This document shows positions 33,547 through 64,000 of a DNA stretch of 64,000 bases, piece by piece. A program made the position numbers and the translations under genes. Source of the stretch: Candidatus Sumerlaeota bacterium (GTDB lineage Bacteria > Sumerlaeota > Sumerlaeia > SLMS01 > JAHLLQ01); assembly GCA_021772755.1 (NCBI GenBank), contig JAJFLJ010000083.1, positions 1,416-65,415 on the forward strand, read 5' to 3'. Position 1 is the stretch's first letter, and each line of letters opens with the position of its first letter. The notes below the pieces were generated by a model. It made no database searches and was not told the origin of the DNA. It saw only the letters and a program-made list of their open reading frames with translations.

Positions 33547-33622
33547 GGGGCTATAGCTCAGCTGGTAGAGCGCTGCGTTCGCAATGCAGAGGTCAGGGGT
33601 TCGACTCCCCTTAGCTCCACCA
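33547..33622 (+). tRNA. tRNA-Ala (anticodon CGC), 76 nt including encoded CCA
   Basis: Cloverleaf checked by hand: acceptor GGGGCUA/UAGCUCC with the G3:U70 Ala identity pair; D-stem GCUC/GAGC; anticodon loop UUCGCAA; T-arm AGGGG-UUCGACU-CCCCU. Confidence 0.9.
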
Positions 33623-33789
33623 CTCAAACCCAACGAAATCAACAGCCAGGAAGAAGGCGTCCGAGCGGCGCCAAGCCGGTTCGCGTGTCTCGGGTCTCCT
33701 CCGCGTCACGGGTGTTTGGGACTATCGTCAGGCACGGTGAAGTACGGAACTCTCGTTGAATACGCGGGGGTTCTCACCGTACCATTCTG

Positions 33790-34818
33790 TTGTTGCTTGA
33801 TAGCGCCAGCCACAAGGATCCCGGTATGCTCGAAAGAATCCGAAACCACCCATTCGTTGCTGGGATCATTATTTCCTCTGTTGTCTGGCTAACTTTGGGC
33901 GGCGTAATCGGACGCGCTTTCTTGGTGGTGACAGGCAAGAATGAGACCTATTTGAATGGAAGAATCACCGAACTTGGGGAGGCTCGCCGGTCTCTTGATG
34001 ATCGCGCCAAGGGAATCGCCACACTGGAAACAAGCAATCAGCTGCTGGAGTATAAACTGGGGGAGTCCCGTACCCAATTAGCCAGCCTGGAGGAGCAGAT
34101 TGCAAAATACAGGGAATTGCAGTTGGAGGACAAGTATGCCGCAGAACGCGCCAGAGTTCGCTCATTGTCCGCTCAGGTGGAAGATCTAAAACTCAGTAAG
34201 GATCAAGAGACTGATAGACTGAGGCGTAGAAACGATGACTTGAGAAAAGAAGTATCGGCACTCCGGGCAGAACTGGCGAGGCTACCTGCGTTGCAGGAGG
34301 AGGGGATCTCAGGTTCCTTGGCCGCTGTTGATACGCTTGTTGCCGAGAAGTTGGACCTTCAACAGAAGGTTGAGGGACTCGTGGGGGAGTTGGAATCCTG
34401 CAAGGATAGCCGGATGGAACAGGAACACCAGTTGTCTCTAACCAAGAATGAGTTGCGGGAAGTACGCCTAATCGTTTCGGGAATCAAGCCAAGTGAGATA
34501 GAGGAGTTTGGTGAACGGAGCCAAGCCTTGGAGTCATTGATGGTAGCCCTACGTGGACTGAGCAACGATGTTGAAGCGGGAAACACTCTGCTGCGAAATA
34601 TTGGAAAGGTGAAGGGAGGAGTCACACCAGAAGAGTGGATTGCTCTGCTCCGAGCTGCCAATATTAGTGATGACTACTGCTACGCACAAGTCATAGCAAA
34701 AAGCGTGAAACATGTTAGTGAGAAGCCAAGCCCAAAGCAGATCCAGACCATATTGAGCAGTATGCACAACGATTCGTACGAGTCCCAAGTCTATGGGTTC
34801 TTACAGGGAATAGACTGA
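33790..34818 (+). CDS. Low-GC (about 50%) membrane-anchored coiled-coil protein; horizontally acquired cargo next to the tRNA
   Basis: N-terminal TM helix (FVAGIIISSVVWLTLGGVIG) followed by ~280 aa of heptad-like coiled coil. GC content drops sharply compared with flanking DNA. Confidence 0.6.
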   Translation: MLLDSASHKDPGMLERIRNHPFVAGIIISSVVWLTLGGVIGRAFLVVTGKNETYLNGRITELGEARRSLDDRAKGIATLETSNQLLEYKLGESRTQLASLEEQIAKYRELQLEDKYAAERARVRSLSAQVEDLKLSKDQETDRLRRRNDDLRKEVSALRAELARLPALQEEGISGSLAAVDTLVAEKLDLQQKVEGLVGELESCKDSRMEQEHQLSLTKNELREVRLIVSGIKPSEIEEFGERSQALESLMVALRGLSNDVEAGNTLLRNIGKVKGGVTPEEWIALLRAANISDDYCYAQVIAKSVKHVSEKPSPKQIQTILSSMHNDSYESQVYGFLQGID

Positions 34819-34835
34819 GGGCATCGGCCAACCGA

Positions 34836-35063
34836 TTATAGCGCAATCGCCCTGACCCTCGCCTCCACGGGCTCCAGTTCCGGCATCGCCAACGTCCCGT
34901 CAGCCCCTTCGTCCGGGTAGAAGCGCAGGTAGTGCAGTTCGGTCGTCTCCGTCGTGCTGTGTCCGAGCACCTTTGACAGCTTGAGGATCGGGTCGCCCTC
35001 GCGGGCCAGCGTCGCGGCAAACGTGTGCCGCAGGGTGTGGAGTGTCAGCGGACGGCGCAGCAT
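34836..35063 (-). pseudogene. Tyrosine recombinase (phage-type integrase) C-terminal remnant
   Basis: Catalytic C-terminus LHTLRHTFAATLAREG...LGHSTTETTELHYL (H-x-x-R ... H ... Y). Upstream in-frame sequence is unrelated and overlaps a repeat, so the gene is truncated. Confidence 0.65.
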
Positions 35064-35215
35064 CGCGCGTCCGGAGCGGCTGACGTTCGCTTGGGCGGGA
35101 CGCCCAAGCCACCCTTTGCGATTCTTCGCGCTCTCCGCGACTTTGCGTTGTGCTCTTTCTCCGCGAACTCTCGCCGTCCTCGGCGTCTCTGCGTACCGCT
35201 CTTTCCCACCGCCGC
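35060..35215. repeat. ~160-bp repeat, copy A (about 85% identical to 51875-52027)
   Basis: gcatcgcgcgtccggagcggctgacgttcgcttgggcgggacgcccaagccaccc...ctctgcgtaccgctctttccc aligns to copy B in the same orientation. A partial third copy (gggcggcccaagccgccct) lies at ~35247-35270. Confidence 0.6.
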
Positions 35216-35342
35216 AGAACACGGTTTCAGCGCCGAGGCCACACGCCGGGCGGCCCAAGCCGCCCTCTTCCCCGTTGCGGCCCCAGGCCGGTCCTGCGAT
35301 TTTGCGCCGTCTTCAATCCTCTCCGTTCTGAAAGGACGCGGC

Positions 35343-36290
35343 ATGACGACGGCTCGGCCCTATCGCGACGACGATCTCGCCGGTGTCGTCTCCGCCTGGC
35401 GGCGCGCGCTGCCCCGGGACGCGGTGACGGAGGACGACTTCGTCCGCCGCGTCCTGCTGGACCGCAACCTGGAGCCCGACGGTCTGCTGGTGGCCGATGG
35501 CGCCGACGGCACCGTCGCCGGGTTCGCCCTCTGTCTGGTGCTGCGCCATCCCATCGAGAACGTCGGGCTGATGGAACACCGCGGTTTCGTCACCGCCTTC
35601 GGCGTCGCGCCGGAGCACCGCGGGCGCGGCGCCGGCGGCGCGCTGCTGAACGAGGCCGAGGCGTTCTTTCGCGAGCGCGGGCGGACGGAAATCGCCATCG
35701 CCCCCTATCCGCCGAACTACTTCGTGCCGGGGGTCGACCGCGTCGCGTACGCCGACGGGCTCGCCTGGCTGGAGAAGCGCGGCTTCGCCGAGTTCAGCGA
35801 GGGCATCGCCATGGACGCGATGATCGGCACGTTCGACCTGGCCGACGACGTGCGGGCGAAGGAGGAGGCGCTCGCCCGCGAGGGCCTGGTCGTCCGTCCT
35901 CTCTCGCGCGACCGCATCGCAGCGTTTCTCGCCTTCATGTCGGCGACGATGCCGGGCGACTGGGTGACCGACGCGCGCGAGCTGCTGAAGTCCGTCGCCG
36001 CCGGCGCCGCGCCGCGCGATTCGATCATGGTGGCGATGGACGGCGGCGAGATCGTCGGCTACTGCAAGTTTCGCGGCGAGCACTTCGGCCCCTTCGGCGT
36101 GGCGGACACGCACCAGGGGCGCGGCATCGGATCGGTGCTGCTGGCGCGGACACTGCTGCAGATGCGCCTGGAGGGGCACCACGCGGCGTTCGTCCTCTGG
36201 ACGGGCGAGCGCGCCGCGCGCGGCGTCTACGCGCGGCTGGGCTTTGCGGTGTCGCGGCGCTTCGCGATTCTCCGGAAACCGCTCGTCTGA
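35343..36290 (+). CDS. GNAT-family N-acetyltransferase with tandem acetyltransferase domains
   Basis: Two acetyl-CoA-binding motifs (HRGRGAGGALL; HQGRGIGSVLL). Confidence 0.8.
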   Translation: MTTARPYRDDDLAGVVSAWRRALPRDAVTEDDFVRRVLLDRNLEPDGLLVADGADGTVAGFALCLVLRHPIENVGLMEHRGFVTAFGVAPEHRGRGAGGALLNEAEAFFRERGRTEIAIAPYPPNYFVPGVDRVAYADGLAWLEKRGFAEFSEGIAMDAMIGTFDLADDVRAKEEALAREGLVVRPLSRDRIAAFLAFMSATMPGDWVTDARELLKSVAAGAAPRDSIMVAMDGGEIVGYCKFRGEHFGPFGVADTHQGRGIGSVLLARTLLQMRLEGHHAAFVLWTGERAARGVYARLGFAVSRRFAILRKPLV

Positions 36291-43447: not shown

Positions 43448-43500
43448 GGGGGTTTCCGAAGGCGCGGCGCGCGCCTTGTTCCTTCAAGCGCAGCGCGCTT

Positions 43501-43670
43501 GGAGATGGTAGCCTTTGGTTGCCGCAGGCAACCAAAGGAACCCGAACACCACGGAACGAACCGCAGGGCGGTTCGACGATCTTCCCGACCCGGCCTGTCG
43601 AACCGCTCTGCGGTTCGGATCGTTGCCTGCACAACCTGCGGTAGCCGCTTGCGCGGCAACCGCAGGCTAT
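43501..43670. repeat. Cluster of four GC-rich hairpins (REP-like or structured RNA)
   Basis: cctttggttgc-CGCAG-gcaaccaaagg (11-bp stem); cgaaccgc-agg-gcggttcg; cgaaccgc-tct-gcggttcg; cctgcggt...accgcagg. The first unit, with flanks, recurs at 62277-62318. Confidence 0.45.
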
Positions 43671-43847
43671 CGACTCCAGGCGCGCTGCGCCTGTCTTGCG
43701 GACGAACGTCCGCGTGCATGGGAAGAGCGCCTGCGGCGTGCTCCCGACGCGGGAGCCGGGCCCCGCACACGACCGCTCGCAGCCGTCACGCGCGCCGACA
43801 CCGAAGGATGGCTCCGGGCAGGCGACTGAGGTACGCCAGAAGACGCG

Positions 43848-46257: not shown

Positions 46258-47388
46258 ATGTTCAAGCACGTTCTCGTCACCGGCGGCGCCGGATTCATCG
46301 GTTCCCACACCGTCGACCGGCTTCTGGAAAGAGGCTGCCGCGTTCGCGTCTTCGACAACCTGGACCCCCAGGTCCACGGCGGGACGGACTCGCCGCCGGA
46401 GTATCTTTCGAAGGACGCCGAGTTCGTCCGCGGCGACATGCGCGACCGCGACGCGCTGGAGAGGGCGCTGGACGGAATCGACGCCGTCGTCCACGACGCC
46501 GCGATGGTGGGCGTCGGCCAGTCCCAGTACCGCATCGATCCCTACATCGACGTCAACGTGCGCGGCACCGCCGTTCTTCTCGACCTGATCGCCAACGGAA
46601 AGACGAAGGTCGATCGCCTTCTCGTCGCCAGCTCCATGAGCATCTACGGCGAGGGGCTCTACGCGCGCGCCAGCGACGGCGCGCGGGTGACGCCGCAGCT
46701 TCGGCCCGACAGCCAGCTCGACGCCGGCGACTTCGAAATGCGCGATCCCGAGACCGGCGAAGCGCTCGACCCGCTCCCCACCCCCGAGTCGAAACCGCTC
46801 TTCTGCAACTCGGTCTACGCCCAGACGAAGAAGGACCAGGAGGAATACTGCCTGATCGTCGGGCGCGCCCACGACCTGCCGACCGTCGCGTGCCGGTTCT
46901 TCAACGTCTACGGACCGCGCCAGAGTCTCAGCAACCCGTACACCGGCGTCGCGGCGATCTTCTCCGCACGCATCAAGAACGGGAACCCGCCGCTGGTCTA
47001 CGAGGACGGCGAGCAGATGCGCGACTTCACCTCCGTCCACGACCTGGTGCGCGCCAAGCTGCTGCTGCTGGAGGACGAGCGCGCCAAAAACGACGTCTAC
47101 AACATCGGCGCGGAACGGCCGGCGAGCATTCTGGAGATCGCGCGCCATCTCGCCGCGCTCTACGGCCGCCCCGAGCTCGAACCGCGCGTCGTCCGCAAGT
47201 TCCGATCGGGCGACATCCGCCACTGTTTCGCGGACACGGCGAAGCTCAAGGCATTGGGATTCCAGCCGCAGGTCGCCCTGGAGGACGGGCTTCGCGAACT
47301 CGTCGAGTGGGGCGAGTCGCAGGAAGCCGTCGACGCCACCGACAAGGCGCACGCGGAACTCGTCCGCCACGGACTCGTCCGGGAATGA
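46258..47388 (+). CDS. NAD-dependent epimerase/dehydratase (extended SDR; UDP-sugar epimerase-like)
   Basis: VTGGAGFIGSH Rossmann motif, catalytic YAQTK, and an insertion in the substrate domain. Confidence 0.85.
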   Translation: MFKHVLVTGGAGFIGSHTVDRLLERGCRVRVFDNLDPQVHGGTDSPPEYLSKDAEFVRGDMRDRDALERALDGIDAVVHDAAMVGVGQSQYRIDPYIDVNVRGTAVLLDLIANGKTKVDRLLVASSMSIYGEGLYARASDGARVTPQLRPDSQLDAGDFEMRDPETGEALDPLPTPESKPLFCNSVYAQTKKDQEEYCLIVGRAHDLPTVACRFFNVYGPRQSLSNPYTGVAAIFSARIKNGNPPLVYEDGEQMRDFTSVHDLVRAKLLLLEDERAKNDVYNIGAERPASILEIARHLAALYGRPELEPRVVRKFRSGDIRHCFADTAKLKALGFQPQVALEDGLRELVEWGESQEAVDATDKAHAELVRHGLVRE

Positions 47389-48365
47389 GCCCCGCCGGCG
47401 CATCGGCCCCATTCGACGGCCTGGTCAGCGTCATCGTGCCCGTTCACGACGAGGCCGGCAACGTCGCGAAGCTCGTCGGCAGGCTCGAGACCGTGCTCGC
47501 CGGGTGCTGCGCGAAGCGCGAGATCGTTCTCGTCGACGACGGCAGCACGGACGGATCGACCGACATTCTGCGCGACCTGGCCCGGCGCCTTCCCTCGGTG
47601 CGGTGCGTGATCCTGCGCGGCAACTTCGGCAAGTCGGCGGCCCTCGCCGCGGGCTTTCGCGAGTCCCGCGGCGAAGTCGTCGTCACGATGGACGCCGACT
47701 TGCAGGACGATCCGCGCGAGATTCCGCGCTTTCTGGCCATGATCGGGGAGGGGTACGACCTAGTTTCCGGATGGAAGCACGTCCGCAACGACCCGATCTC
47801 CAAGCGCGTTCCCTCGCGCGTGTTCAATCTCGTCACCCGCACGCTGCTCGGCACGAAGCTCCACGACATGAATTGCGGCTTCAAGTGCTACCGCCGCGAG
47901 GTCATCGACACCATCGACGTCTACGGCGAACTGCACCGCTACATTCCCGCCTTCGCCCACGCGCACCGGTTCCGCATCGGCGAGCTCCGCGTGCGCCACC
48001 ACGCGCGCACCTGGGGAAGGTCGAAGTACGGCGGCGAGCGCTATCTGCGCGGCCTGTTCGATCTGCTGACGGTTCTGATCCTGACGCGTTTCTCCTTCAG
48101 CCCGCTCTACTTCTTCGGCGTCGTCGGGCTCGCCGGATTCGTTCCGGGCTTTCTGATCCTGCTCTACCTGACGGTTCTCTGGTTCCTCGGCGAGCCCATC
48201 GGACACCGCCCGCTGCTGTCGCTCGGCATTCTGCTCTGCCTGACGGGCGTACAGGTCGTCTCGGTCGGCCTGATCGCCGAGATGATCTCGAACCTCCGTC
48301 TTCGCCCCTCGGCGCGGAATCCCGTGCGCGAGGTCGTCGGCGGCGAGGCCGGTGCGGATTCATGA
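47385..48365 (+). CDS. GT2-family polyprenyl-phosphate glycosyltransferase (GtrB/ArnC/DPM1-like)
   Basis: ATGA overlap with the epimerase gene. [10 protein letters not shown]...[11 protein letters not shown]...[12 protein letters not shown]... and two C-terminal TM helices. Confidence 0.85.
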
Positions 48366-48982
48366 GCGATACCGGCGCCGGCGAACCGCGCCTCGAAACG
48401 ACCAACCTCGAGAAGTACCGCACCCGCAACCCGCTCGTCCGGCGCATGTTCGACGGGTTCTTCGCCCAGGTGGCGGAATGCGTTCGCGCGACCGGCGCGC
48501 GAACGATGCTCGATGCCGGCTGCGGCGAGGGCGAGACCCTCGAACGCCTCGCCGACCTGCTGCCCCCCGACGTTCTCGGCATCGACATCAATCCGCAGTG
48601 CGTCGAATTCTGCCGCCGGCGCATTCCCTCGCGCCGCTTCGAAACCGGAAGCGTTGTCGACATCGACGCGGAAGACGGCCGCTTCGACCTCGTCACCTGT
48701 CTCGAAGTCCTCGAACATCTCGACCGCCCCGACGATGCTCTCGCGGAACTCGCCCGCGTGTCGCGCCGCGACATCGTCGTCTCCGTTCCCCACGAACCCT
48801 GGTTCCGCCTGGGAAGTCTCGCGCGCGGAAAGTACGTTTCCACGTTCGGAAACCATCCGGAACACGTCCAGCACTGGAATCCCCGCAGCTTCGGCGCGTT
48901 TCTGCGGCGGCGCGTGGACATCGTTTCGCTGTCGACGGCGTTTCCCTGGATCGTCGCGCACTGTCGAAAGCGAATCCCGTGA
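48362..48982 (+). CDS. Class I SAM-dependent methyltransferase
   Basis: ATGA overlap. Motif [11 protein letters not shown], acidic motif II, and LEVLEHL. Confidence 0.8.
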
Positions 48983-49389
48983 TCCGTCATCGCATGGCAT
49001 TGGTGCGCTACGGTGCGGCATCCGCCCTCAGCCTCGCGTCCATCTACGCCGGGTCGGCGGGTCTGCACGAGATCGCGGGGTGGAGCGAAGAGGCCGCGTA
49101 CGGCACGACGCTCGTCGCGGTGTTCTTCGTCAACTTCCTGGTGCTGCGCCACTGGGTGTACGGCGACACGAAGTCCGGCGGAAAGGCCGCGCGCCAGCTC
49201 GTCCACACGGCTGCGGCGTCGGCGGGGTTTCGCGGCGTCGAGTACGCGCTGTTCCTGCTGCTGCACGCGGCGCTGGGACTGAACTACCTGGTTGCCATCG
49301 GAGTCGTCGCCGTGCTGCTCTTCTTCGGCAAGTTCGTCTACTACAGGAAGATGGTCTTCGCCGCCGACGAATCCGAGACGCCCGCATAG
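48979..49389 (+). CDS. GtrA-family small membrane protein (polyprenyl-linked sugar flippase-like)
   Basis: GTGA overlap with the methyltransferase gene (alternative ATG at 48994). Four TM helices, ~130 aa, [15 protein letters not shown]...[12 protein letters not shown] are typical of GtrA. Confidence 0.7.
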
Positions 49390-49432
49390 ATCGCGCGCGA
49401 ATCGCCGCACGAACCCCACGGACAAGACGAGC

Positions 49433-50506
49433 ATGGCCAGAATCTTCTTCAGCATGTCGGGCGAGGGGCGCGGCCACGCGACCAGGGCGCGCTCCCTCGT
49501 CGAGCAGCTGCTGCGCGACGGCCACGAAATCCGCCTCTTCTGTCCCGGCGACGCGTACGACCTGCTGGCTCCCGTCTACGCCGACGGCCCGGTCCGCGTC
49601 GACCGCATCCCGGGCCTCGTCTTCCACTACAGCGCAAGCAAGCGGCTCGACACGGTTCGCACGGTGATCGGCGCGGCGAAGTACATCCTCGGAATGCCGG
49701 CCCTGATGCGGCGCCTCGGCGGCGTCTTTCGCTCCCGCCGCCCCGACCTGGTCGTCACCGACTTCGAACCGTCGCTGCCGCGTACCGCAAAGCGCCACGG
49801 CGTTCCCTTCATCAGCGTCAACCACCAGCACTTTCTCCTCGCCAACGACCTCTCCTCGCTCCCCTGGCGGCTGCGGCTCCACGCGTGGATCATGAGTCTC
49901 GTCGTCCGCCGCTACTACAGCGGCCAGGCCGCGACGGTGATCTCGCAGTTCTACTTTCCGCCGGTGAAGCCGCGATGGAAGGCGCGCACCACGCAGGCCG
50001 GCGTGCTCATGCGTCCCGAGATTCTCGGCGCGACGCCCGCGACCGGCGACCACATCGTCGTCTACGTGCGCAAGTTCGCGTCGGCGAACCTGATGCGCGC
50101 TCTCGCCGGCTGCGGACGCGAGGTGCGCATCTATGGCCTCGGCAAGCGCGACGACAGCGACAATCTCCGGTTTCGCGAAATCGACGACAGCGGATTCCTG
50201 CGCGACCTTGCCTCGGCGCAGGCACTGGTCTGTACCGCAGGGAACCAGCTCGTCGGCGAGGCGCTCTTCCTCGGCAAACCCGTCTTCGCCATGCCCGAAC
50301 CCGGCAACCACGAGCAGTACATCAACGCCCACTACCTGGCGGAGAGCGGAGCCGGCGAATGGGCCGACCTGGAGTTCGTCACGCCGGCGCAACTGCGCAG
50401 GTTCCTCGACCGCCTGGACGATTACCGCGGCCGCATCGACACCGCCCGCATGAACGGCAACGACGCTGCGCTGAAAGTCATCCGTGACTTCCTGGCGAAG
50501 ACGTAG
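49433..50506 (+). CDS. GT-B fold glycosyltransferase (MurG/GT28/MGT-like)
   Basis: N-terminal [22 protein letters not shown] (GxGH acceptor-domain motif) and C-terminal nucleotide-sugar domain ([22 protein letters not shown]). Confidence 0.75.
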
Positions 50507-50558
50507 GCGCGGATCGGAAGAAGAGAGGAAGAGCAAGAGAACGGTACGCAGAGGCGCG

Positions 50559-50609
50559 CCGGAGCTCCCCCGAGAAGGATTCAACGCAAAGACGCGGAGA
50601 ATCGCAAAG
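50559..50609. repeat. 51-bp direct repeat core, left copy (ccggagctcccccgagaaggattcaacgcaaagacgcggagaatcgcaaag)
   Basis: Near-identical copy at 51781-51831. Preceded by gaacggtacgcagaggcgcg, the inverse of the ctctgcgtaccg motif found at 35196, 51768 and 51996. Confidence 0.6.
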
Positions 50610-50625
50610 GTTCGCAAAGAACAGC

Positions 50626-51606
50626 TTGGAGCGTCCCAGCAACTCTACAAAGGGCAAGCCCTCCAAACGGGTATGCGAATTCCTCTGGACACTACCCCAT
50701 CGAAGGTGCGCTCCACTCTTGGGTATGTCTCCCATACCGAGCGCGATCCGATCCCTGACCGCTGTTTTTGCCGGCAAGCATCACCCGTCAACGTGGAAGG
50801 TGGTCGGATTCGGTTGGAAGCCGTATGTCTTTGGGCCTCTGGTTTGCGGCCTGGCGATCCCGATCATACAACAAATCCCTGCGCTGCCGCCACTTCCTTC
50901 GATCTGGGCGTCTCCCCGATTCACGCCGAACTCCTTCTTGGACTGGAAAGTATTCGTCGTCATTGGTGTGGGGCTGATGACCCGAAGGCGACTCGAAGCG
51001 CTCCGCTCGTCGGAAGTGCGGGTCCTCCCGGTCTGCCGAGCACAGATCACATTGGCGATTCTTCTCCAGCTGTCCCTGGCGTTTCTCCTCGCCGGGTTCG
51101 TAGCCCTGGTTGCCGACTGCGTTTCGAAATCCAACGCGCTATGGGCTCGTGACATTCCGTGGTGGAGACTCCCTCAGCGGTCTATGGCCTGCGTTCTTCT
51201 GGAGTCGCATAAGGGAAGCATGTCCATCTTTCAGGTACTTGCTGTGGCGTGTATCGAGATCGTCACGCAGCTCTGCCTCTTGATGGGCACTATGGGACTT
51301 CTGATACTTGGCTACGTCCTTCTTCAGACAGCAAGGAACCATTCCCTGGGTCTGGTCTACGTATTCGCGGCTTGCTTCGTATCGCTGTATGGCTGGGCAC
51401 GATTCCCCCTCCTGTTCCATCGCTCCGCCCGTATTCTCTATGACTACACCGGGGTGAACCCGTATGGATACTGGTACTACGCGTCCACCGACCTGCTGGT
51501 TCGGATGATACTGGCCACCCTTCACTGCCTGGCGGCATGGTATGCATGTCGTCATATGCACAAATGGATCTGGGCGGACAGACTTGGCGCTGCGCCAGGA
51601 CGGTGA
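50626..51606 (+). CDS. Low-GC polytopic membrane protein (326 aa; start may be internal), horizontally acquired
   Basis: GC about 55% versus about 68% nearby. At least eight hydrophobic helices. Bracketed by the direct and inverted repeat set. Confidence 0.5.
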   Translation: MERPSNSTKGKPSKRVCEFLWTLPHRRCAPLLGMSPIPSAIRSLTAVFAGKHHPSTWKVVGFGWKPYVFGPLVCGLAIPIIQQIPALPPLPSIWASPRFTPNSFLDWKVFVVIGVGLMTRRRLEALRSSEVRVLPVCRAQITLAILLQLSLAFLLAGFVALVADCVSKSNALWARDIPWWRLPQRSMACVLLESHKGSMSIFQVLAVACIEIVTQLCLLMGTMGLLILGYVLLQTARNHSLGLVYVFAACFVSLYGWARFPLLFHRSARILYDYTGVNPYGYWYYASTDLLVRMILATLHCLAAWYACRHMHKWIWADRLGAAPGR

Positions 51607-51780
51607 GGCGCGGTTCCGAGACATGATTGCGCGAGGTGGCGAGTGGATAAGGGGAGAGAGCGAGCAGGAAGGAAAAACCGGGTTCTTCTTCGCGAACCTT
51701 TGCGTGCTTGGCGCCTCTGCGTTTAGCTCTTTCTCTGCGACCTCCGCACCCTCAGCGCCTCTGCGTACCGCTTTTCCCTC

Positions 51781-51831
51781 CCGGAGCTCCCCTGAGAAGG
51801 ATTCAACGCAAAGACGCAGAGAATCGCAAAG
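51781..51831. repeat. 51-bp direct repeat core, right copy
   Basis: Matches 50559-50609 with 2 mismatches and 1 indel. The preceding 51680-51700 (cgcgaacctttgcg) is the inverse of 50600-50620 (cgcaaaggttcgcaaag). Confidence 0.6.
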
Positions 51832-51874
51832 AGCGCGTAGTGGACGAGCAGCGTGGCGTTGGCGTCTCGCCGAA

Positions 51875-52027
51875 GCATCGCGCGTCCGGAGCGGCTGACG
51901 TTCGCCTGGGCGGGGACGCCCAAGCCACCCTTCGCGCGCTTCGCGACTTCGCGTTGTGCTCATTCTCTGCGAGCTCTCGCCGTTCCTTTGCGCCTCTGCG
52001 TACCGCTTTTTCCGATCGCCGCTCCTC
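51875..52027. repeat. ~160-bp repeat, copy B (homologous to 35060-35215)
   Basis: Sits directly between the right 51-bp core and the 3' end of the PhzF gene. Confidence 0.6.
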
Positions 52028-52844
52028 ATGCAGTCTGCGCTGCGCTCTTCAGCGCGCCTTCCCAGACGGTGACGACCTGGCCGGCGACTTCGACGCGGTC
52101 GCCCCGCAGGCCCACGCGCACGATTCCGCCCCGGGTCGAAACCTGGTGGCCGGTCATGTCGCGTTTGCCGAGCCGCCCGGCCCAGTACGGCGCGAGCCCG
52201 CAATGGGCCGATCCGGTGACGGGGTCCTCGTCGATCCCGTCGGCTGGGGCGAAGAAGCGCGAAACGAAGTCGATGTCGGGGGAATCGGCGCGGGCGGTCA
52301 GCATGAAGTTGGTGCGGGAGAATCCTCCGGCGAGAAGCCGCCGAAAGTCGGGGGTCGCCTGGCGCACGTCGGTTTCGCTGGCGACTTCCGCGATGAGGTC
52401 GCGCCCGTTGGCTTCGAGCGCCGCGATGGCCGACACGCCGAGGGCCTCCGCCAAGCCCTCCTCCGGCGGGGCGGGGCGGGGGACCATCGCGGGAAAGTCC
52501 ATGACGATCCAGTCGCCGGAGCGGCGACAGGTCAGCGTCCCGCTGCGGGTCTCGAAGAGGGCCGGTTCCCCAGGCCCCAGCCGTCCGGTCTCCCAGAGGC
52601 GGTGGGCCGAGGCGAGAGTCGCGTGGCCGCAGAGGTCCACCTCGGTGGCGGGCGTGAACCACCGGAGGTGCCAGCGGCCGTCGGGCTGGGGCACGACGCA
52701 GGCGGTTTCGGAGAGATTCATCTCGGCGGCCAGGCTCTGAAGCCACCCGTCGGCGGGCCAGGATTCGAGGATGCAGACGGCGGCGGGATTGCCGGTGAAG
52801 GGCCGGGCGGCGAAGGCATCGACGACGGCGATGGCGGTGCTCAT
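52026..52844 (-). CDS. PhzF-family phenazine-biosynthesis-like isomerase
   Basis: MSTAIAVVDAFAARPFTGNPAAV N-terminus; catalytic-region matches (CGHATLA, GSAHC). 272 aa. Confidence 0.85.
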   Translation of the reverse strand: MSTAIAVVDAFAARPFTGNPAAVCILESWPADGWLQSLAAEMNLSETACVVPQPDGRWHLRWFTPATEVDLCGHATLASAHRLWETGRLGPGEPALFETRSGTLTCRRSGDWIVMDFPAMVPRPAPPEEGLAEALGVSAIAALEANGRDLIAEVASETDVRQATPDFRRLLAGGFSRTNFMLTARADSPDIDFVSRFFAPADGIDEDPVTGSAHCGLAPYWAGRLGKRDMTGHQVSTRGGIVRVGLRGDRVEVAGQVVTVWEGALKSAAQTA

Positions 52845-61918: not shown

Positions 61919-62276
61919 GAGAGTGCTCCTTCTTGGGTGAGTGTAGCCTTGGGTTTCACCCTGCCGGTAGATCGGTCCACGCGCAAGCCCGAAGTTCCCA
62001 TTTCTAACGGAAATCTGTCCTTGTTCTCGCATTTCGCGGAAAGCGGGTGGCGCACCCTGAATCCCGAACGAATCGACGCGTGATCAACTGAAAACAGTGG
62101 ACTTGGACGGTTTCGGTCCTGGGCCGCGACCGGCGCCATCTGGTGGCGGAGGACGGGAGTTTCGCGCAGAGAGGCGAAGACGCGGAGAAGAGACGGGAGG
62201 CGGAGAGGGCGCGAAGGGGCGAGGATGTCGGCTGCGAGCGGGATCGGGGCGAGTATCCCTCCGGCGCATCGCGCCT

Positions 62277-62318
62277 GGAGATGTCAGCCTTGTGTTGCCG
62301 CAGGCAACCCGGGGAACC
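62277..62318. repeat. Second copy of the 42-bp palindromic element ggagatgNNagcctNgNgttgccgcaggcaaccNNgggaacc
   Basis: Matches 43501-43542 in 36 of 42 positions, including the core palindrome gttgcc-gca-ggcaac. Sits in the same position relative to flanking minus-strand genes. Confidence 0.5.
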
Positions 62319-62418
62319 GGATGTGTTGGAAAGAACAGCGTCGCTGTTCGACAAGCCTCTCGCGGACAACGACCAACGAAGAACGGTCAACCGCTCTTCC
62401 CGGGAGCGCCACGGACCG

Positions 62419-64000
62419 CTATTTGGCCTTCTTCTTCGCAGCCTTCTTGGCGGAGGACTTCTTCGCGGCCTTCTTGACGGATTTCTTGACCGCCTTCTTG
62501 GCGGCCTTCTTCCGTCCGCCGCCGGACTTCGCCTTGGCGGCGATCAGTTCCTTCGCCTGCTCCAGCGTGATGCTCTCCGGCGCTGTGTCCTTGGGCAGCG
62601 TGGCGTTGGTGTCGCCATCTGTGACATAGGGGCCGTATCGCCCGTCGAGCACCTGGATGGACTCGCCGAGGTCCTTGAGGACGGCCTTCTTCGCGGCGGC
62701 CCGGCGGCCCTGCTTGGGCTGGGCGAGGAGTTCCAGGGCGCGCTCCAGCGTGATCGTATAGGGGCTGTCCGGTTCCTTGATGGAGCGGAAATCGCGGTCC
62801 ATCTGGACGTAGGGGCCGTAGCGACCGTTGTTGGCGAGGATCGGGGTGCCGGTCTCGGGATGGGTGCCGAGTTCGCGGGGGAGGGAGAGCAGATGCAGGG
62901 CGGTTTCGAGATCGACGTCGTCCTCGGCCATGTCCTTTTCGAGCGAGGCGCGGCGGGGCTTCTCCTTGGAGTCGCCGGTTTCTCCGAGCTGGACGTAGGG
63001 CCCGAAGCGGCCCCGGGCGGCGTAGACGGTCAGGCCGGACTTCGGGTCGGTTCCGACGGCGCGGGGGCCTTCGGCCTTGCGGCGGATCATCTGTGCGGCG
63101 TCTTCGACGGTCAGATCGGCGGGAGCGATGTCGGGCGGCACGTTGGCGCGGTTGCCGTCGCCGCCCTCTCCGCGAACCAGGTAGGGGCCGTAGCGGCCGA
63201 TGCGCAGAACGATGGGCTCGGCGGTCTCGGGGTCTTCGCCCAGGGCGGTGTCGGGAAAGCCGATGCGCTCGACCTCGCGCTCGATGCGGCTGGCCAGACC
63301 GGTGCTGTCGGCTGCGGTGGCTCCGCTGGCGCCGTAGTAGAACTGGCGGACGTGATCGACCCAGTCGCGGGCGCCGTCGGCGATTTCGTCGAGTTCCTCT
63401 TCCATGCGCGCGGTGAACTTCAGATCGACGTAGTCGGCGAAGTGGCTGCGCATCAGGTTCGTCACGGCCATGGCGGTGAAGGTGGGCACCAGGGCGCCGC
63501 CGCTCTTGGCGCTGTTGGCATAGCCGCGGTTCTGGATGGTGGTGATGATGGAGGCGTACGTGGAGGGGCGGCCGATGCCCTCCTCTTCGAGCTTCTTGAC
63601 CAGAGCGGCTTCGGTGTAGCGGGCCGGCGGCATGGTGACGTGCTGGTTGGCCTTTACGTCGCCGAAAGTGGCCGGACCCGGTTCGCGGCCGATGGTCTGG
63701 CCTTCTCTGAGATCGGGAAGGATCGTTTCCTTGTCGCCGAGTTCCGCGGCGGGATCGTCGCTGCCCTCGACATAGGCGCGCAGGTACCCGGGGAAGAGGA
63801 TCTTCTTGCCGCTGACGGAGAACACCGCCGGGCCGCGCCGACAGGGGGCGGTGATTTCGATGGTGGTGCGAAGGACGTCGGCTTCGGGCATCTGGCTGGC
63901 GAGGGTGCGCTTCCAGATCAGCTCGTAGACGCGGGCCTCCTCCTTCGAGAGGTAGCGCTCGATGTCCTGGGGGCGGCGTCCGAACTGCGTCGGGCGGATC
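62419..64000 (-). CDS. topA: DNA topoisomerase I, 3' portion (gene continues beyond the window end)
   Basis: Repeated Zn-ribbon-like GRYGPYV/GRFGPYV modules and a Lys-rich C-terminal tail. In-frame continuation to base 64000 encodes ...ELIWKRTLASQMPEA, which is TopA core sequence. Confidence 0.9.
   Translation of the reverse strand, partial: IRPTQFGRRPQDIERYLSKEEARVYELIWKRTLASQMPEADVLRTTIEITAPCRRGPAVFSVSGKKILFPGYLRAYVEGSDDPAAELGDKETILPDLREGQTIGREPGPATFGDVKANQHVTMPPARYTEAALVKKLEEEGIGRPSTYASIITTIQNRGYANSAKSGGALVPTFTAMAVTNLMRSHFADYVDLKFTARMEEELDEIADGARDWVDHVRQFYYGASGATAADSTGLASRIEREVERIGFPDTALGEDPETAEPIVLRIGRYGPYLVRGEGGDGNRANVPPDIAPADLTVEDAAQMIRRKAEGPRAVGTDPKSGLTVYAARGRFGPYVQLGETGDSKEKPRRASLEKDMAEDDVDLETALHLLSLPRELGTHPETGTPILANNGRYGPYVQMDRDFRSIKEPDSPYTITLERALELLAQPKQGRRAAAKKAVLKDLGESIQVLDGRYGPYVTDGDTNATLPKDTAPESITLEQAKELIAAKAKSGGGRKKAAKKAVKKSVKKAAKKSSAKKAAKKKAK

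What the first reader, a model, noticed from the sequence alone, without database searches (positions are those of the whole stretch)
50520..52027. Second low-GC insertion bracketed by a composite direct/inverted repeat family shared with the integrase-remnant locus
A 326-aa low-GC membrane-protein gene is flanked by a 51-bp direct repeat (50559-50609 and 51781-51831, 2 mismatches and 1 indel). Inverted sub-motifs sit beside it: acggtacgcagaggcgcg versus gcgcctctgcgtaccg, and cgcaaaggttcgcaaag versus cgcgaacctttgcg. On the right it is followed by a ~160-bp element that is about 85% identical to the sequence abutting the integrase remnant at 35060-35215. The same element therefore marks two independent junctions between acquired and native DNA. 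This suggests a small mobile or site-specific-recombination-associated repeat (MITE-like or att-scar) that has not been described.
Basis: seen in the sequence. Interest (0 to 1): 0.65.

Follow-up and report, generated by a model that had tools for sequence, protein, structure and literature searches.

The report
Heptamer-array repeat bordering acquired DNA
A previously undescribed ~165-bp repeat, built from six evenly spaced 7-base motifs plus an invariant 16-base end motif, sits at the borders of the only two patches of foreign-looking DNA in this 64-kb bacterial chromosome segment; it looks like the recombinase-binding end of a decayed small mobile element, but mobility could not be shown.

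Summary
The 51-nt direct repeat is 49/51 identical with no indel, both inverted sub-motifs exist, and 35053-35215 matches 51868-52022 at 84-88%.

These pieces belong to one oriented, non-palindromic module of about 165 bp. From inner to outer end it has a 55-nt "L" part with a 9-bp hairpin, six CTYYGCG heptamers at a ~9-bp period, an invariant GCGYCTCTGCGTACCG, and a pyrimidine tail.

The window holds four copies and one 51-nt fragment, all at two loci: A(+), B1(-), B2(+) and B3(+). Those loci are the only low-GC patches in the window.

- **Site B:** B1 and B3 are inverted and abut the stop codons of both flanking genes. They enclose an orphan membrane-protein gene with no homolog among 1.84 billion representative proteins.
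- **Site A:** copy A starts where a tyrosine-integrase gene of a decayed tRNA-Ala island is cut off.

I found no target-site duplication, transposase, stable fold or Rfam match. I found no copy in GTDB species genomes, JGI metagenomes, IMG/VR, plasmids or phages.

The best reading, at about 0.4 confidence, is terminal recombinase-binding regions of a decayed, lineage-restricted, cargo-carrying mobile element family. A resident repeat acting as a recombination hotspot is a close rival. Strict MITE, REP/BIME and attC membership all fail. Genome-wide copy number could not be tested.

The parts
33547..33622 (+). tRNA-Ala(CGC), the probable original integration target of the site-A island
   Evidence: ARAGORN and Rfam tRNA at 69.5 bits. 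A 58%-identical integrase homolog in another genome lies convergent with a tRNA-Ala(GGC) gene.
33790..34818 (+). Low-GC (51%) coiled-coil ORF of 342 aa, cargo of the site-A island
   Evidence: ORF list. GC by codon position is 0.58/0.38/0.56. Only weak coiled-coil-type matches in Pfam, PHROGs, PADLOC and NCBIfam.
34836..35056 (-). Tyrosine-integrase remnant: the C-terminal ~73 aa only (HxLRH ... LGH ... Y), with native-like GC3 of 0.84
   Evidence: Pfam PF00589 positions 117-167 of 172, E 1.8e-8. PHROG integrase families. DNA homology to the closest relative L067 stops at window position 35051.
35057..35218 (+). Copy A of the repeat: L module 35057-35113 (hairpin GCTTGGGCG-GGA-CGCCCAAGC) and heptamer unit 35114-35218
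   Evidence: Alignments, nhmmer at 139.7 bits, heptamers at 35114/24/33/41/59/87. GC 66%.
35343..36290 (+). Native double-GNAT acetyltransferase gene flanking site A, 124 nt beyond the outer end of copy A
   Evidence: Pfam. GC3 0.92.
49433..50506 (+). Native glycosyltransferase (PF13528) with an intact C-terminus. Its stop codon is directly followed by the outer end of B1.
   Evidence: Pfam and alignment with five homologs. Three relatives have a radical-SAM/SPASM gene next instead.
50507..50676 (-). Copy B1, a full but diverged L+unit in inverted orientation, 58% GC. It contains copy 1 of the 51-nt direct repeat (50559-50609).
   Evidence: L-module similarity has shuffle p about 0.005. nhmmer 111 bits. 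GC.
50725..51606 (+). Orphan gene for a 293-aa helical membrane protein (58% GC), the cargo between B1 and B2
   Evidence: Only itself among 1.84 billion representative proteins. No Pfam, PHROGs, PADLOC or NCBIfam family. Coding-like GC profile and hydrophobic segments. The AlphaFold model is all-helical but low confidence, pLDDT 49.7.
51686..51790 (+). Copy B2: heptamer unit without the L module, 62% GC. It is the inverted partner of B1, with matches at both the inner and the outer ends.
   Evidence: nhmmer 132 bits.
51781..51831 (-). 51-nt fragment of a (-) unit, which is copy 2 of the direct repeat. It is 96% identical to B1 50559-50609 and lacks both the 16-mer and the inner heptamer.
   Evidence: (D16). 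nhmmer 29 bits on the minus strand.
51872..52025 (+). Copy B3: L module 51872-51923 and unit 51924-52025, 67% GC. Its outer end lies 3 nt from the PhzF stop codon.
52026..52844 (-). Native PhzF-family gene, convergent with the glycosyltransferase, flanking site B
   Evidence: Pfam PF02567, E 1.6e-57. Public gene call of 272 aa.

Best explanation
The repeats are copies of one oriented, non-palindromic module of about 165 bp. I read it as the terminal, recombinase-binding region of a decayed family of small cargo-carrying mobile elements confined to this poorly sampled lineage.

**Shown**
- The module runs, inner to outer: an L part with a 9-bp hairpin; six CTYYGCG heptamers in direct orientation at a ~9-bp period; an invariant GCGYCTCTGCGTACCG; and a pyrimidine-rich tail.
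- The heptamers and the 16-mer are the conserved columns.
- At site B, two lower-GC copies (B1 and B2) lie in inverted orientation with the 16-mer outermost. They flank an orphan membrane-protein gene of the same low GC.
- Together with the native-GC copy B3, they fill the whole space between two convergent native genes.
- At site A, a single copy starts where an integrase gene is cut off.

**Inferred**
- The heptamer array is a platform for cooperative binding of a recombinase or transposase. Known parallels are the phased subterminal repeats of IS607-family ends and the arm-type sites of heterobivalent integrases.
- The invariant 16-mer near the outer end marks the region of strand exchange.
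- B1-ORF-B2 is a non-autonomous, MIC-like cassette. It landed in an older inverted pair (a (-) fragment plus B3) by recombination within a unit, which left the 96%-identical 51-nt direct repeat.
- Copy A is an old solo end whose inner boundary was the endpoint of a deletion that removed the 5' part of the integrase gene and the rest of the tRNA-Ala island.
- The cognate recombinase acts in trans and is not in this window.
For: - Four copies and one fragment, and nothing else in 64 kb (profile search; heptamer clusters only at these four places, 5-8 per 150 nt against a background of 0.38).
- Both loci coincide with the only low-GC patches of the window.
- The 16-mer is invariant apart from one Y in all four copies.
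- Heptamer columns are invariant in 25 of 35 cases, other columns in 23 of 63 (Fisher p 0.0014).
- The best-fit heptamer period is 8.85-9.35 bp in every copy (R 0.89-0.96).
- B1(-) and B2(+) match at both the inner end (CGCAAAGGTTCGCRAAGAA) and the outer end. B1 and B3 outer tails abut both stop codons.
- B1, B2 and the fragment share the low GC of the cargo (55-62%), whereas A and B3 are native-like (66-67%). This fits newer incoming and older resident members of one family.
- A, B3 and, more weakly, B1 share the same inner boundary at GCATCGCG. This argues for a discrete element rather than a random deletion endpoint.
- Integrase homology stops within about 5 nt of that boundary.
- The conserved glycosyltransferase / radical-SAM linkage seen in three relatives is broken exactly at the B1 outer end.
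- Precedent for phased subterminal direct repeats without TIRs or TSDs: IS607/IS1535 (PMC6188088). Precedent for cassettes flanked by IS-type inverted repeats: MICs (PMC4337579 and PMC5444012, title and abstract level only).
Against: - There is no transposase or intact recombinase in the window.
- There is no target-site duplication at any candidate boundary.
- No second end was found at site A.
- No related copy turned up in 185,579 GTDB species genomes, JGI metagenomes, IMG/VR, PLSDB plasmids or INPHARED phages.
- No called protein resembles any translation of the unit.
- The copies are only 71-86% identical. Assembly breakpoints in the source sample show no other near-identical copy of B1, B2 or B3. 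Any activity is therefore old.
- A 9-bp period is not the 10.5-bp helical repeat. It could simply reflect a decayed 9-mer tandem repeat.
- With only two loci, the link to acquired DNA rests on a rough 1-in-66 argument.
Confidence: 0.4

Rival explanations
1. The module is a resident, genome-specific dispersed intergenic repeat, analogous in role to BIMEs. It is not itself mobile DNA but acts as a hotspot or landing pad. Foreign DNA and deletions end at it because it is recombinogenic or is targeted by other elements, as REPs are by some insertion sequences.
For: - A and B3 have native GC (66-67%) and sit directly next to native genes.
- The orientation pattern at site B is (-)(+)(-)(+), as in BIME clusters.
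- The 51-nt direct repeat shows that the ORF-bearing segment is inserted within a unit.
- The window also contains an unrelated, strongly palindromic intergenic repeat family, so this genome is rich in intergenic repeats.
- REPs are documented insertion targets (PMC1525189).
- A Logan contig break at 35086 hints at a further close copy of the A-type L module in the sample.
Against: - About a dozen other sizeable intergenic regions in the window lack the unit.
- B1 and B2 have the foreign GC of the cargo and flank it as an inverted pair, so they look like parts of the incoming DNA.
- The units are not palindromic.
- No copy occurs in any GTDB species genome, including relatives at 65-75% glycosyltransferase identity, as far as their loci were read.
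Confidence: 0.3
2. The modules are att-site remnants. The heptamers would be arm-type binding sites of the tyrosine integrase whose remnant lies at site A. Site B would be a second, more decayed island of the same family, with the 51-nt direct repeat as its attL/attR core.
For: - Copy A lies on the 5' side of the integrase remnant, where attP arms lie in many integrative elements.
- Direct 7-nt repeats in contiguous arrays resemble arm-type sites.
- Site A is next to tRNA-Ala, and a homologous integrase elsewhere is also next to a tRNA-Ala gene.
- A 1.17-kb low-GC insert is flanked by a 51-nt direct repeat.
Against: - There is no duplicate of the tRNA-Ala 3' end anywhere near copy A.
- The integrase is truncated by the element rather than preceded by it.
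- The inner boundary is shared by A, B3 and B1, which a random deletion endpoint would not give.
- Site B has no tRNA and no integrase trace.
- B1 and B3 are inverted, not direct.
Confidence: 0.15
3. The module is a regulatory or RNA element, such as a promoter or 5' leader cassette, a small RNA, or a terminator, duplicated at several genes.
For: - In two of three full copies (A, B1) the purine-rich strand reads into a downstream ORF, the integrase remnant and the orphan gene respectively.
- The outer end carries a tiny hairpin followed by a T-rich tail, which the scan lists as terminator-like.
Against: - No Rfam match even at E up to 5.
- No significant folding on either strand.
- No sigma-70-like promoter.
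- B3 and B2 have no downstream gene in the matching orientation.
- The L hairpin difference between A and B3 is not compensatory.
Confidence: 0.05
4. The similarities are chance or low-complexity matches in GC-rich DNA.
For: The units are built from a short degenerate motif, so some cross-matching between them is expected.
Against: - Shuffle controls give 0 expected matches for the 19- to 31-nt patterns and for the composite pattern found four times.
- BLAST E-values run from 1e-8 to 1e-39.
- nhmmer scores are 111-140 bits.
Confidence: 0.01

Closest known systems
Mobile insertion cassettes (MICs, e.g. MIC231 of Bacillus cereus; Tn3-type MICs of Xanthomonas, PMC4337579)
   Same: A passenger gene without a transposase is bracketed by inverted copies of an element end (B1/B2 or B1/B3 around the orphan gene). 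Mobilisation in trans is presumed.
   Different: - The ends here are 100-170 bp long and only 71-76% identical.
- They are built from direct heptamers rather than a short terminal inverted repeat.
- There is no target-site duplication.
- No cognate insertion sequence is known.
IS607-family transposon ends (IS607, IS1535; PMC6188088)
   Same: The ends lack terminal inverted repeats and target duplications. They carry several short, directly repeated, regularly spaced subterminal motifs that nucleate a recombinase filament.
   Different: - IS607 motifs are 9 bp long, spaced 10-11 bp apart, and lie 20-60 bp from the terminus.
- Here the heptamers have a ~9-bp period and lie about 25-105 bp from the outer end.
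- No serine recombinase TnpA or TnpB is present.
- GG termini were not identifiable.
Arm-type sites of heterobivalent tyrosine integrases (lambda P'1-3, L5, Tn916 DR2). This comparison rests on textbook knowledge; the papers found were not read in depth.
   Same: Contiguous direct repeats of 7-11 bp lie within about 150 bp of an element end and next to an integrase gene. At site B a direct repeat flanks the inserted DNA.
   Different: - There is no intact integrase.
- There is no tRNA-derived core repeat at site A.
- The copies at site B are inverted and not at a tRNA.
REP/BIME elements (PMC3333891, PMC2817692)
   Same: Clustered intergenic repeats lie in alternating orientation immediately after stop codons, with a modular or mosaic make-up. 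They may act as insertion targets.
   Different: - Each REP is a 20-40-nt imperfect palindrome; these units do not fold.
- Copy number here is unknown.
- No RAYT gene was seen.
BOX elements of Streptococcus pneumoniae (from my own knowledge, not checked here)
   Same: A modular, non-coding intergenic repeat made of distinct sub-modules, with partial copies that lack a module.
   Different: BOX elements are predicted to form stable structures and are abundant. There is no sequence relation.

Membership tests
MITE | A short non-coding element ending in terminal inverted repeats, so that it folds as a hairpin | tested here: not met
   Single units have no TIR. Fold z-scores run from -1.47 to +0.89 on either strand. 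Only the composite B1...B2 or B1...B3 has inverted ends, and it is 1.2-1.5 kb long and carries a gene.
MITE | Target-site duplication flanking the element | tested here: not met
   The flanks of A, B1...B2 and B1...B3 share no direct repeat of 4 nt or more at the boundaries.
MITE | Many dispersed copies in the genome and a related autonomous insertion sequence | not testable with these tools
   The source genome cannot be reached. There are 4 copies plus a fragment at 2 loci in 64 kb. The window has no transposase. Public collections gave no copies.
attL/attR of a tRNA-targeting tyrosine-integrase island | A direct repeat of the tRNA 3' end at the distal island border | tested here: not met
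   Word-7 BLAST of 33560-33700 against the window finds nothing near 35050-35340.
attL/attR of a tRNA-targeting tyrosine-integrase island | A functional integrase gene within the element | tested here: not met
   Only the last ~73 codons remain at site A. Site B has none.
attL/attR of a tRNA-targeting tyrosine-integrase island | Arm-type sites bound by the integrase N-terminal domain | tested here: inconclusive
   Phased direct heptamers are present. Binding cannot be tested, and the integrase N-terminal domain is deleted.
REP/BIME | Unit is an imperfect palindrome of 20-40 nt | tested here: not met
   Folding is no better than for shuffled sequence. The palindromic family at 43488-43690 in the same window gives z = -10.5.
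REP/BIME | High copy number and an associated RAYT (Y1 transposase) | not testable with these tools
   The genome is not available. No RAYT-like protein was found among the window ORFs scanned.
Integron gene cassette / attC | An attC site with an imperfect palindrome (R''-L''...L'-R', GTTRRRY core) and all sites in one orientation | tested here: not met
   There is no palindromic fold. The units flanking the ORF are inverted relative to each other.
Mobile insertion cassette (MIC) | Passenger gene or genes, without a transposase, between inverted copies of IS-type ends | tested here: met
   B1(-) and B2(+) are 76% identical over ~90 nt, with the 16-mer outermost, and flank the orphan gene. The interval has no transposase domain.
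Mobile insertion cassette (MIC) | Target-site duplication and a cognate insertion sequence with the same ends | tested here: not met
   There is no TSD. No cognate insertion sequence is in the window, and the rest of the genome cannot be tested.
IS607-family element | A serine-recombinase TnpA gene, usually with tnpB, between the ends | tested here: not met
   No such domain appears in the interval or in the window ORFs scanned.
Known RNA family (Rfam 15) | A covariance-model match | tested here: not met
   Only the tRNA passes the gathering threshold over the whole window. There are no matches at E up to 5 in 50400-52150.

The most novel reading that the evidence does not exclude
The module defines a new kind of gene-capture or junction element. 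It would be a TIR-less, TSD-less, non-palindromic recombination site, made of a phased heptamer array and an invariant 16-mer, recognised by an unidentified recombinase. Single orphan genes would be inserted at it, next to resident copies. This would be functionally analogous to integron cassettes or pdif modules but with unrelated site architecture, and it would operate in a barely sampled bacterial lineage related to Sumerlaeota.
Probability: 0.1. Interest if true: 0.7.

Novelty: new variant of a known kind. Interest (0 to 1): 0.32.

Why it matters
If the module is a recombination site, it would mark how orphan genes enter the genomes of an uncultured, poorly sampled lineage. The nearest named relatives are Sumerlaeota, at about 57% identity for a housekeeping glycosyltransferase. 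It would also add a new end architecture, a direct heptamer array without inverted repeats or target duplications, to the catalogue of bacterial mobile DNA.

Practically, the four-copy profile is a ready probe for finding island borders and the missing recombinase once the full genome is in hand. If the module is only a resident repeat, it is an ordinary lineage-specific intergenic repeat, of interest mainly for assembly and annotation.

Tried and rejected
**Searches for further copies: none found**
- Rfam at the gathering threshold and at E up to 5: nothing except the tRNA.
- Exact 18-mer GCGYCTCTGCGTACCGYT in GTDB species genomes: 48 single hits in unrelated taxa. The two inspected were in coding DNA, and BLAST and nhmmer extend essentially none beyond the seed.
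- Composite pattern in JGI metagenomes: 13 chance hits. The best, L065, lies inside an ABC permease gene.
- IMG/VR with three patterns: 1 chance hit, then 0 and 0.
- blastn against PLSDB plasmids and INPHARED phages: no match.
- A chimeric six-frame translation of the units, used as a protein query to catch spurious ORF calls over other copies: no hit at E up to 10.
- Loci of three relatives and two integrase homologs: no units and no heptamer clusters.

**Hypotheses tested and dropped**
- Similarity between the tRNA-proximal end of the site-A island and the unit (a missing left end): not above shuffles.
- Apparent extension of the A/B1 alignment into the integrase remnant and the orphan gene's 5' region: not significant, score 14 against a shuffle mean of 11.2 and maximum of 19.
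- Region 62150-62230 as a fifth copy: the motif style is similar, but the profile does not detect it.
- attC, REP, omega-RNA or bridge-RNA-like structure: rejected because the units do not fold.
- Intrinsic terminator role for the flanking genes: the orientation is wrong and the stems are weak.

**Characterising the cargo and the source**
- Structure prediction of the orphan protein: pLDDT 49.7, too poor for a fold search.
- Organism names through the cluster look-up: none recorded.
Full report
**1. Context**

The window is a 66.8% GC chromosomal segment full of housekeeping genes: uvrB, cysS, topA, DAHP synthase, photolyase, ABC transporters and others. Its proteins are found on an 80,495-bp NCBI MAG contig and on short Logan contigs of run SRR15505512.

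The closest relatives of the glycosyltransferase at 49433-50506 are unnamed MAGs at 75%, 73%, 70% and 65% identity. The nearest named ones are Sumerlaeia/Sumerlaeota at 56-57%. The lineage is therefore poorly sampled.

Only two stretches depart from the native composition: 34001-35000 at 53% GC, and 50001-52000 at 60-62% GC.

**2.

- The 51-nt direct repeat (50559-50609 and 51781-51831) is 49/51 identical with no indel. Identity stops abruptly on both sides.
- The two inverted sub-motifs are real, with none expected by chance.
- The ~160-bp similarity between 35053-35215 and 51868-52022 is 84-88%, with a 32-nt exact core and a 10-nt indel.

**3. What the pieces are**

Sensitive self-comparison shows that all of them belong to one unit, present four times:

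| Copy | Coordinates | Strand | GC | Notes |
|---|---|---|---|---|
| A | 35057-35218 | + | 66% | full L + unit |
| B3 | 51872-52025 | + | 67% | full L + unit |
| B2 | 51686-51790 | + | 62% | unit only, no L module |
| B1 | 50507-50676 | - | 58% | full but diverged L + unit |
| fragment | 51781-51831 | - | 55% | second copy of the 51-nt direct repeat |

Pairwise identities are A-B3 86%, A-B2 77%, B2-B3 75%, and B1 against the others 67-76%. The fragment is 96% identical to the matching part of B1. A profile built from the four copies finds nothing else in the window.

Read in the (+) orientation, the full module has four parts:

- **(i) L part.** 55 nt, GCATCGCGCGTCCGGAGCGGCTGACGTTCGC followed by the hairpin GCTTGGGCG-GGA-CGCCCAAGC.
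- **(ii) Heptamers.** Six CTYYGCG heptamers in direct orientation at offsets 0, 10, 19, 27, 45 and 73.
- **(iii) 16-mer.** The last heptamer is embedded in GCGYCTCTGCGTACCG, which is invariant apart from one Y.
- **(iv) Tail.** A pyrimidine-rich tail, CTYTTTCC..CCGCCGC.

Several measurements characterise the unit:

- Heptamer clusters of 5-8 per 150 nt occur only at these four places, against a background of 0.38.
- Heptamer columns are much better conserved than the spacers: 25 of 35 invariant against 23 of 63 (p = 0.0014). The aligner may favour matching repeated motifs, so this has some circularity.
- The heptamers fit a period of 8.85-9.35 bp in every copy. This is shorter than the 10.5-bp helical repeat.
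- The units do not fold. Z-scores run from -1.47 to +0.89 on both strands. An unrelated palindromic repeat in the same window gives z = -10.5.
- No Rfam family matches.

**4. Site B anatomy**

- The glycosyltransferase gene is complete at its C-terminus. Its stop codon at 50504-50506 is followed immediately by the outer tail of B1.
- B3 ends 3 nt before the stop codon of the convergent PhzF gene. B1(-) and B3(+) therefore bracket the entire 1.5-kb interval as an inverted pair with similar outer tails.
- Inside, B1(-) and B2(+) form a tighter inverted pair around the ORF at 50725-51606. They match at both the inner and the outer ends.
- After B2 come the 51-nt (-) fragment, a 40-nt GC-rich spacer, and then L+B3. 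The orientation pattern is (-) cargo (+)(-) spacer (+).
- The ORF is very probably a real gene. It is an open frame of 326 codons in 58% GC DNA, which I estimate at about 1e-5 by chance per frame. Its GC by codon position is coding-like, and it has several hydrophobic helices.
- It has no homolog at E up to 0.001 among 1.84 billion representative proteins. It has no family in Pfam, PHROGs, PADLOC or NCBIfam.
- B1, B2 and the fragment share the cargo's low GC, whereas B3 and the spacer are native-like.
- In three relatives the glycosyltransferase is followed directly by a radical-SAM/SPASM gene. That gene is absent from the whole window. Synteny therefore breaks exactly at the B1 outer end. Because those relatives are distant, this is only modest evidence.

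**5. Site A anatomy**

- The order is tRNA-Ala(CGC) at 33547-33622, a 51% GC coiled-coil ORF at 33790-34818, and then the C-terminal ~73 codons of a tyrosine integrase on the minus strand at 34836-35056.
- DNA and protein comparison with the closest homologs shows that integrase homology ends at about 35051-35056. Similarity of A to B3 begins at 35053-35059, and similarity to B1 at 35060.
- Copy A thus replaces the 5' two-thirds of the integrase gene. Three copies share the same inner boundary.
- No integrase N-terminus lies beyond copy A. There are 124 nt and then a native GNAT gene.
- There is no duplicate of the tRNA 3' end, and no second unit at the tRNA-proximal end.
- A 58%-identical integrase in GCA_964401435.1 lies convergent with a tRNA-Ala(GGC) gene. 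This integrase family probably targets tRNA-Ala, and site A is a decayed island of that type.

**6. Distribution**

- No related copy was found in the GTDB species genomes, JGI metagenomes, IMG/VR, plasmids or phages, nor among called proteins.
- The loci of relatives contain no units.
- Logan contigs of the source run end at 51903 and 51876. This is exactly what the single 32-nt stretch shared by A and B3 predicts with k = 31. It means no other copy shares a 31-mer with B1, B2 or B3.
- The contig to the right of A starts at 35086 rather than the expected 35061. That implies a further sequence in the sample sharing 35086-35115. It could be a third close copy or a strain variant, and it remains unresolved.
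- Whole-genome copy number could not be determined.

**7. Interpretation**

The features point to a protein-recognised recombination module rather than a structured RNA or a palindromic repeat:

- conserved heptamers at a regular ~9-bp spacing and an invariant end motif;
- a discrete inner boundary;
- an inverted pair around low-GC cargo;
- a solo copy at a deletion endpoint in an integrase gene;
- exclusive association with the two atypical-GC patches.

The closest functional precedents are three:

- the phased subterminal direct repeats of IS607-family ends, which also lack TIRs and TSDs (PMC6188088);
- arm-type sites of heterobivalent integrases;
- mobile insertion cassettes, for the arrangement around cargo.

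My preferred model, at about 0.4 confidence, has three parts. B1-cargo-B2 is a non-autonomous cassette of a lineage-restricted element family. It recombined into an older inverted pair (the fragment plus B3), leaving the 51-nt repeat. Copy A is an old solo end at which an adjacent deletion removed most of the tRNA-Ala island.

All mechanistic steps are inferred: the binding protein, the strand-exchange site and the order of events. Only the anatomy is shown.

The main rival, at about 0.3, is a resident dispersed repeat that serves as a recombination hotspot or insertion target, as REPs do (PMC1525189). An att-arm remnant (about 0.15) fits the integrase adjacency. It fails on the missing tRNA core repeat, the truncation geometry, and the non-tRNA, inverted arrangement at site B.

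**8. Classification**

Strict membership in MITE, REP/BIME, integron attC, att site or IS607 fails on at least one tested defining feature each. The MIC arrangement is met in form, but without a TSD or a known cognate insertion sequence.

The element is best described as a new variant of terminal or dispersed repeats of mobile DNA. It is genuine but ancient. Only four copies are known and mobility is untested, so the interest is moderate to low until the full genome is examined.

Noticed in passing
window 43480-43700 and 62256-62321: An unrelated, strongly palindromic intergenic repeat. The arms 43485-43525 and 43653-43693 are 83% complementary and enclose nested perfect hairpins (GGTTGCC-GCAG-GCAACC, CGAACCGC-AGGG-CGGTTCG). 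The DNA fold is -84.7 kcal/mol, z = -10.5. A third copy, 80% identical, lies at 62256-62321. It looks like a true MITE- or REP-like family and has no Rfam match at the gathering threshold.
   Followed up: partly
window 62150-62230: A purine-rich intergenic stretch with CGCAGAG, GCGAAG and CGCGGAG motifs. GCGAAGACGCGGAGAA matches B1 at 15 of 16 positions. It could be a very degenerate fifth copy of the heptamer unit, but the four-copy nhmmer profile does not detect it.
   Followed up: yes
window 35086 (start of Logan contig L001): The Logan contig to the right of copy A starts 25 nt later than the A/B3 shared 32-mer predicts. This implies another sequence in sample SRR15505512 sharing 35086-35115, either a third near-identical L module or a strain variant.
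   Followed up: partly
window 50506/50507; L052 3215-4435, L069 1888-2970, L070 1634-2644: In three relatives the orthologous glycosyltransferase is followed, in the same direction, by a radical-SAM/SPASM gene. That gene is absent from the whole 64-kb window, so the conserved pair is broken exactly where B1 begins.
   Followed up: yes
L068 103-797 (GCA_964401435.1): The 58%-identical integrase homolog ends inside a convergent tRNA-Ala(GGC) gene. This suggests the integrase family targets tRNA-Ala genes, as at window site A.
   Followed up: partly
L067 1-641 (ENA farmland metagenome contig): The closest integrase homolog (78% identity) is also only a C-terminal fragment of 98 aa. It is preceded by an unrelated ORF whose N-terminus (KHILLAVAGTT...VTEAIYGL) reminded me of CRISPR-associated NE0113-type proteins. 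I did not test that resemblance.
   Followed up: no
window 47389-49432: About 2 kb separates the epimerase gene (46258-47385) from the glycosyltransferase here, whereas the two are adjacent in relative L052. From reading ORF translations the interval seems to hold a GtrA-like membrane protein. No family search was run on that frame.
   Followed up: no
window 62627-63231: Direct repeats spaced at 183-186 nt inside the topA fragment correspond to the Toprim_C_rpt protein repeats. This is an ordinary coding repeat.
   Followed up: yes
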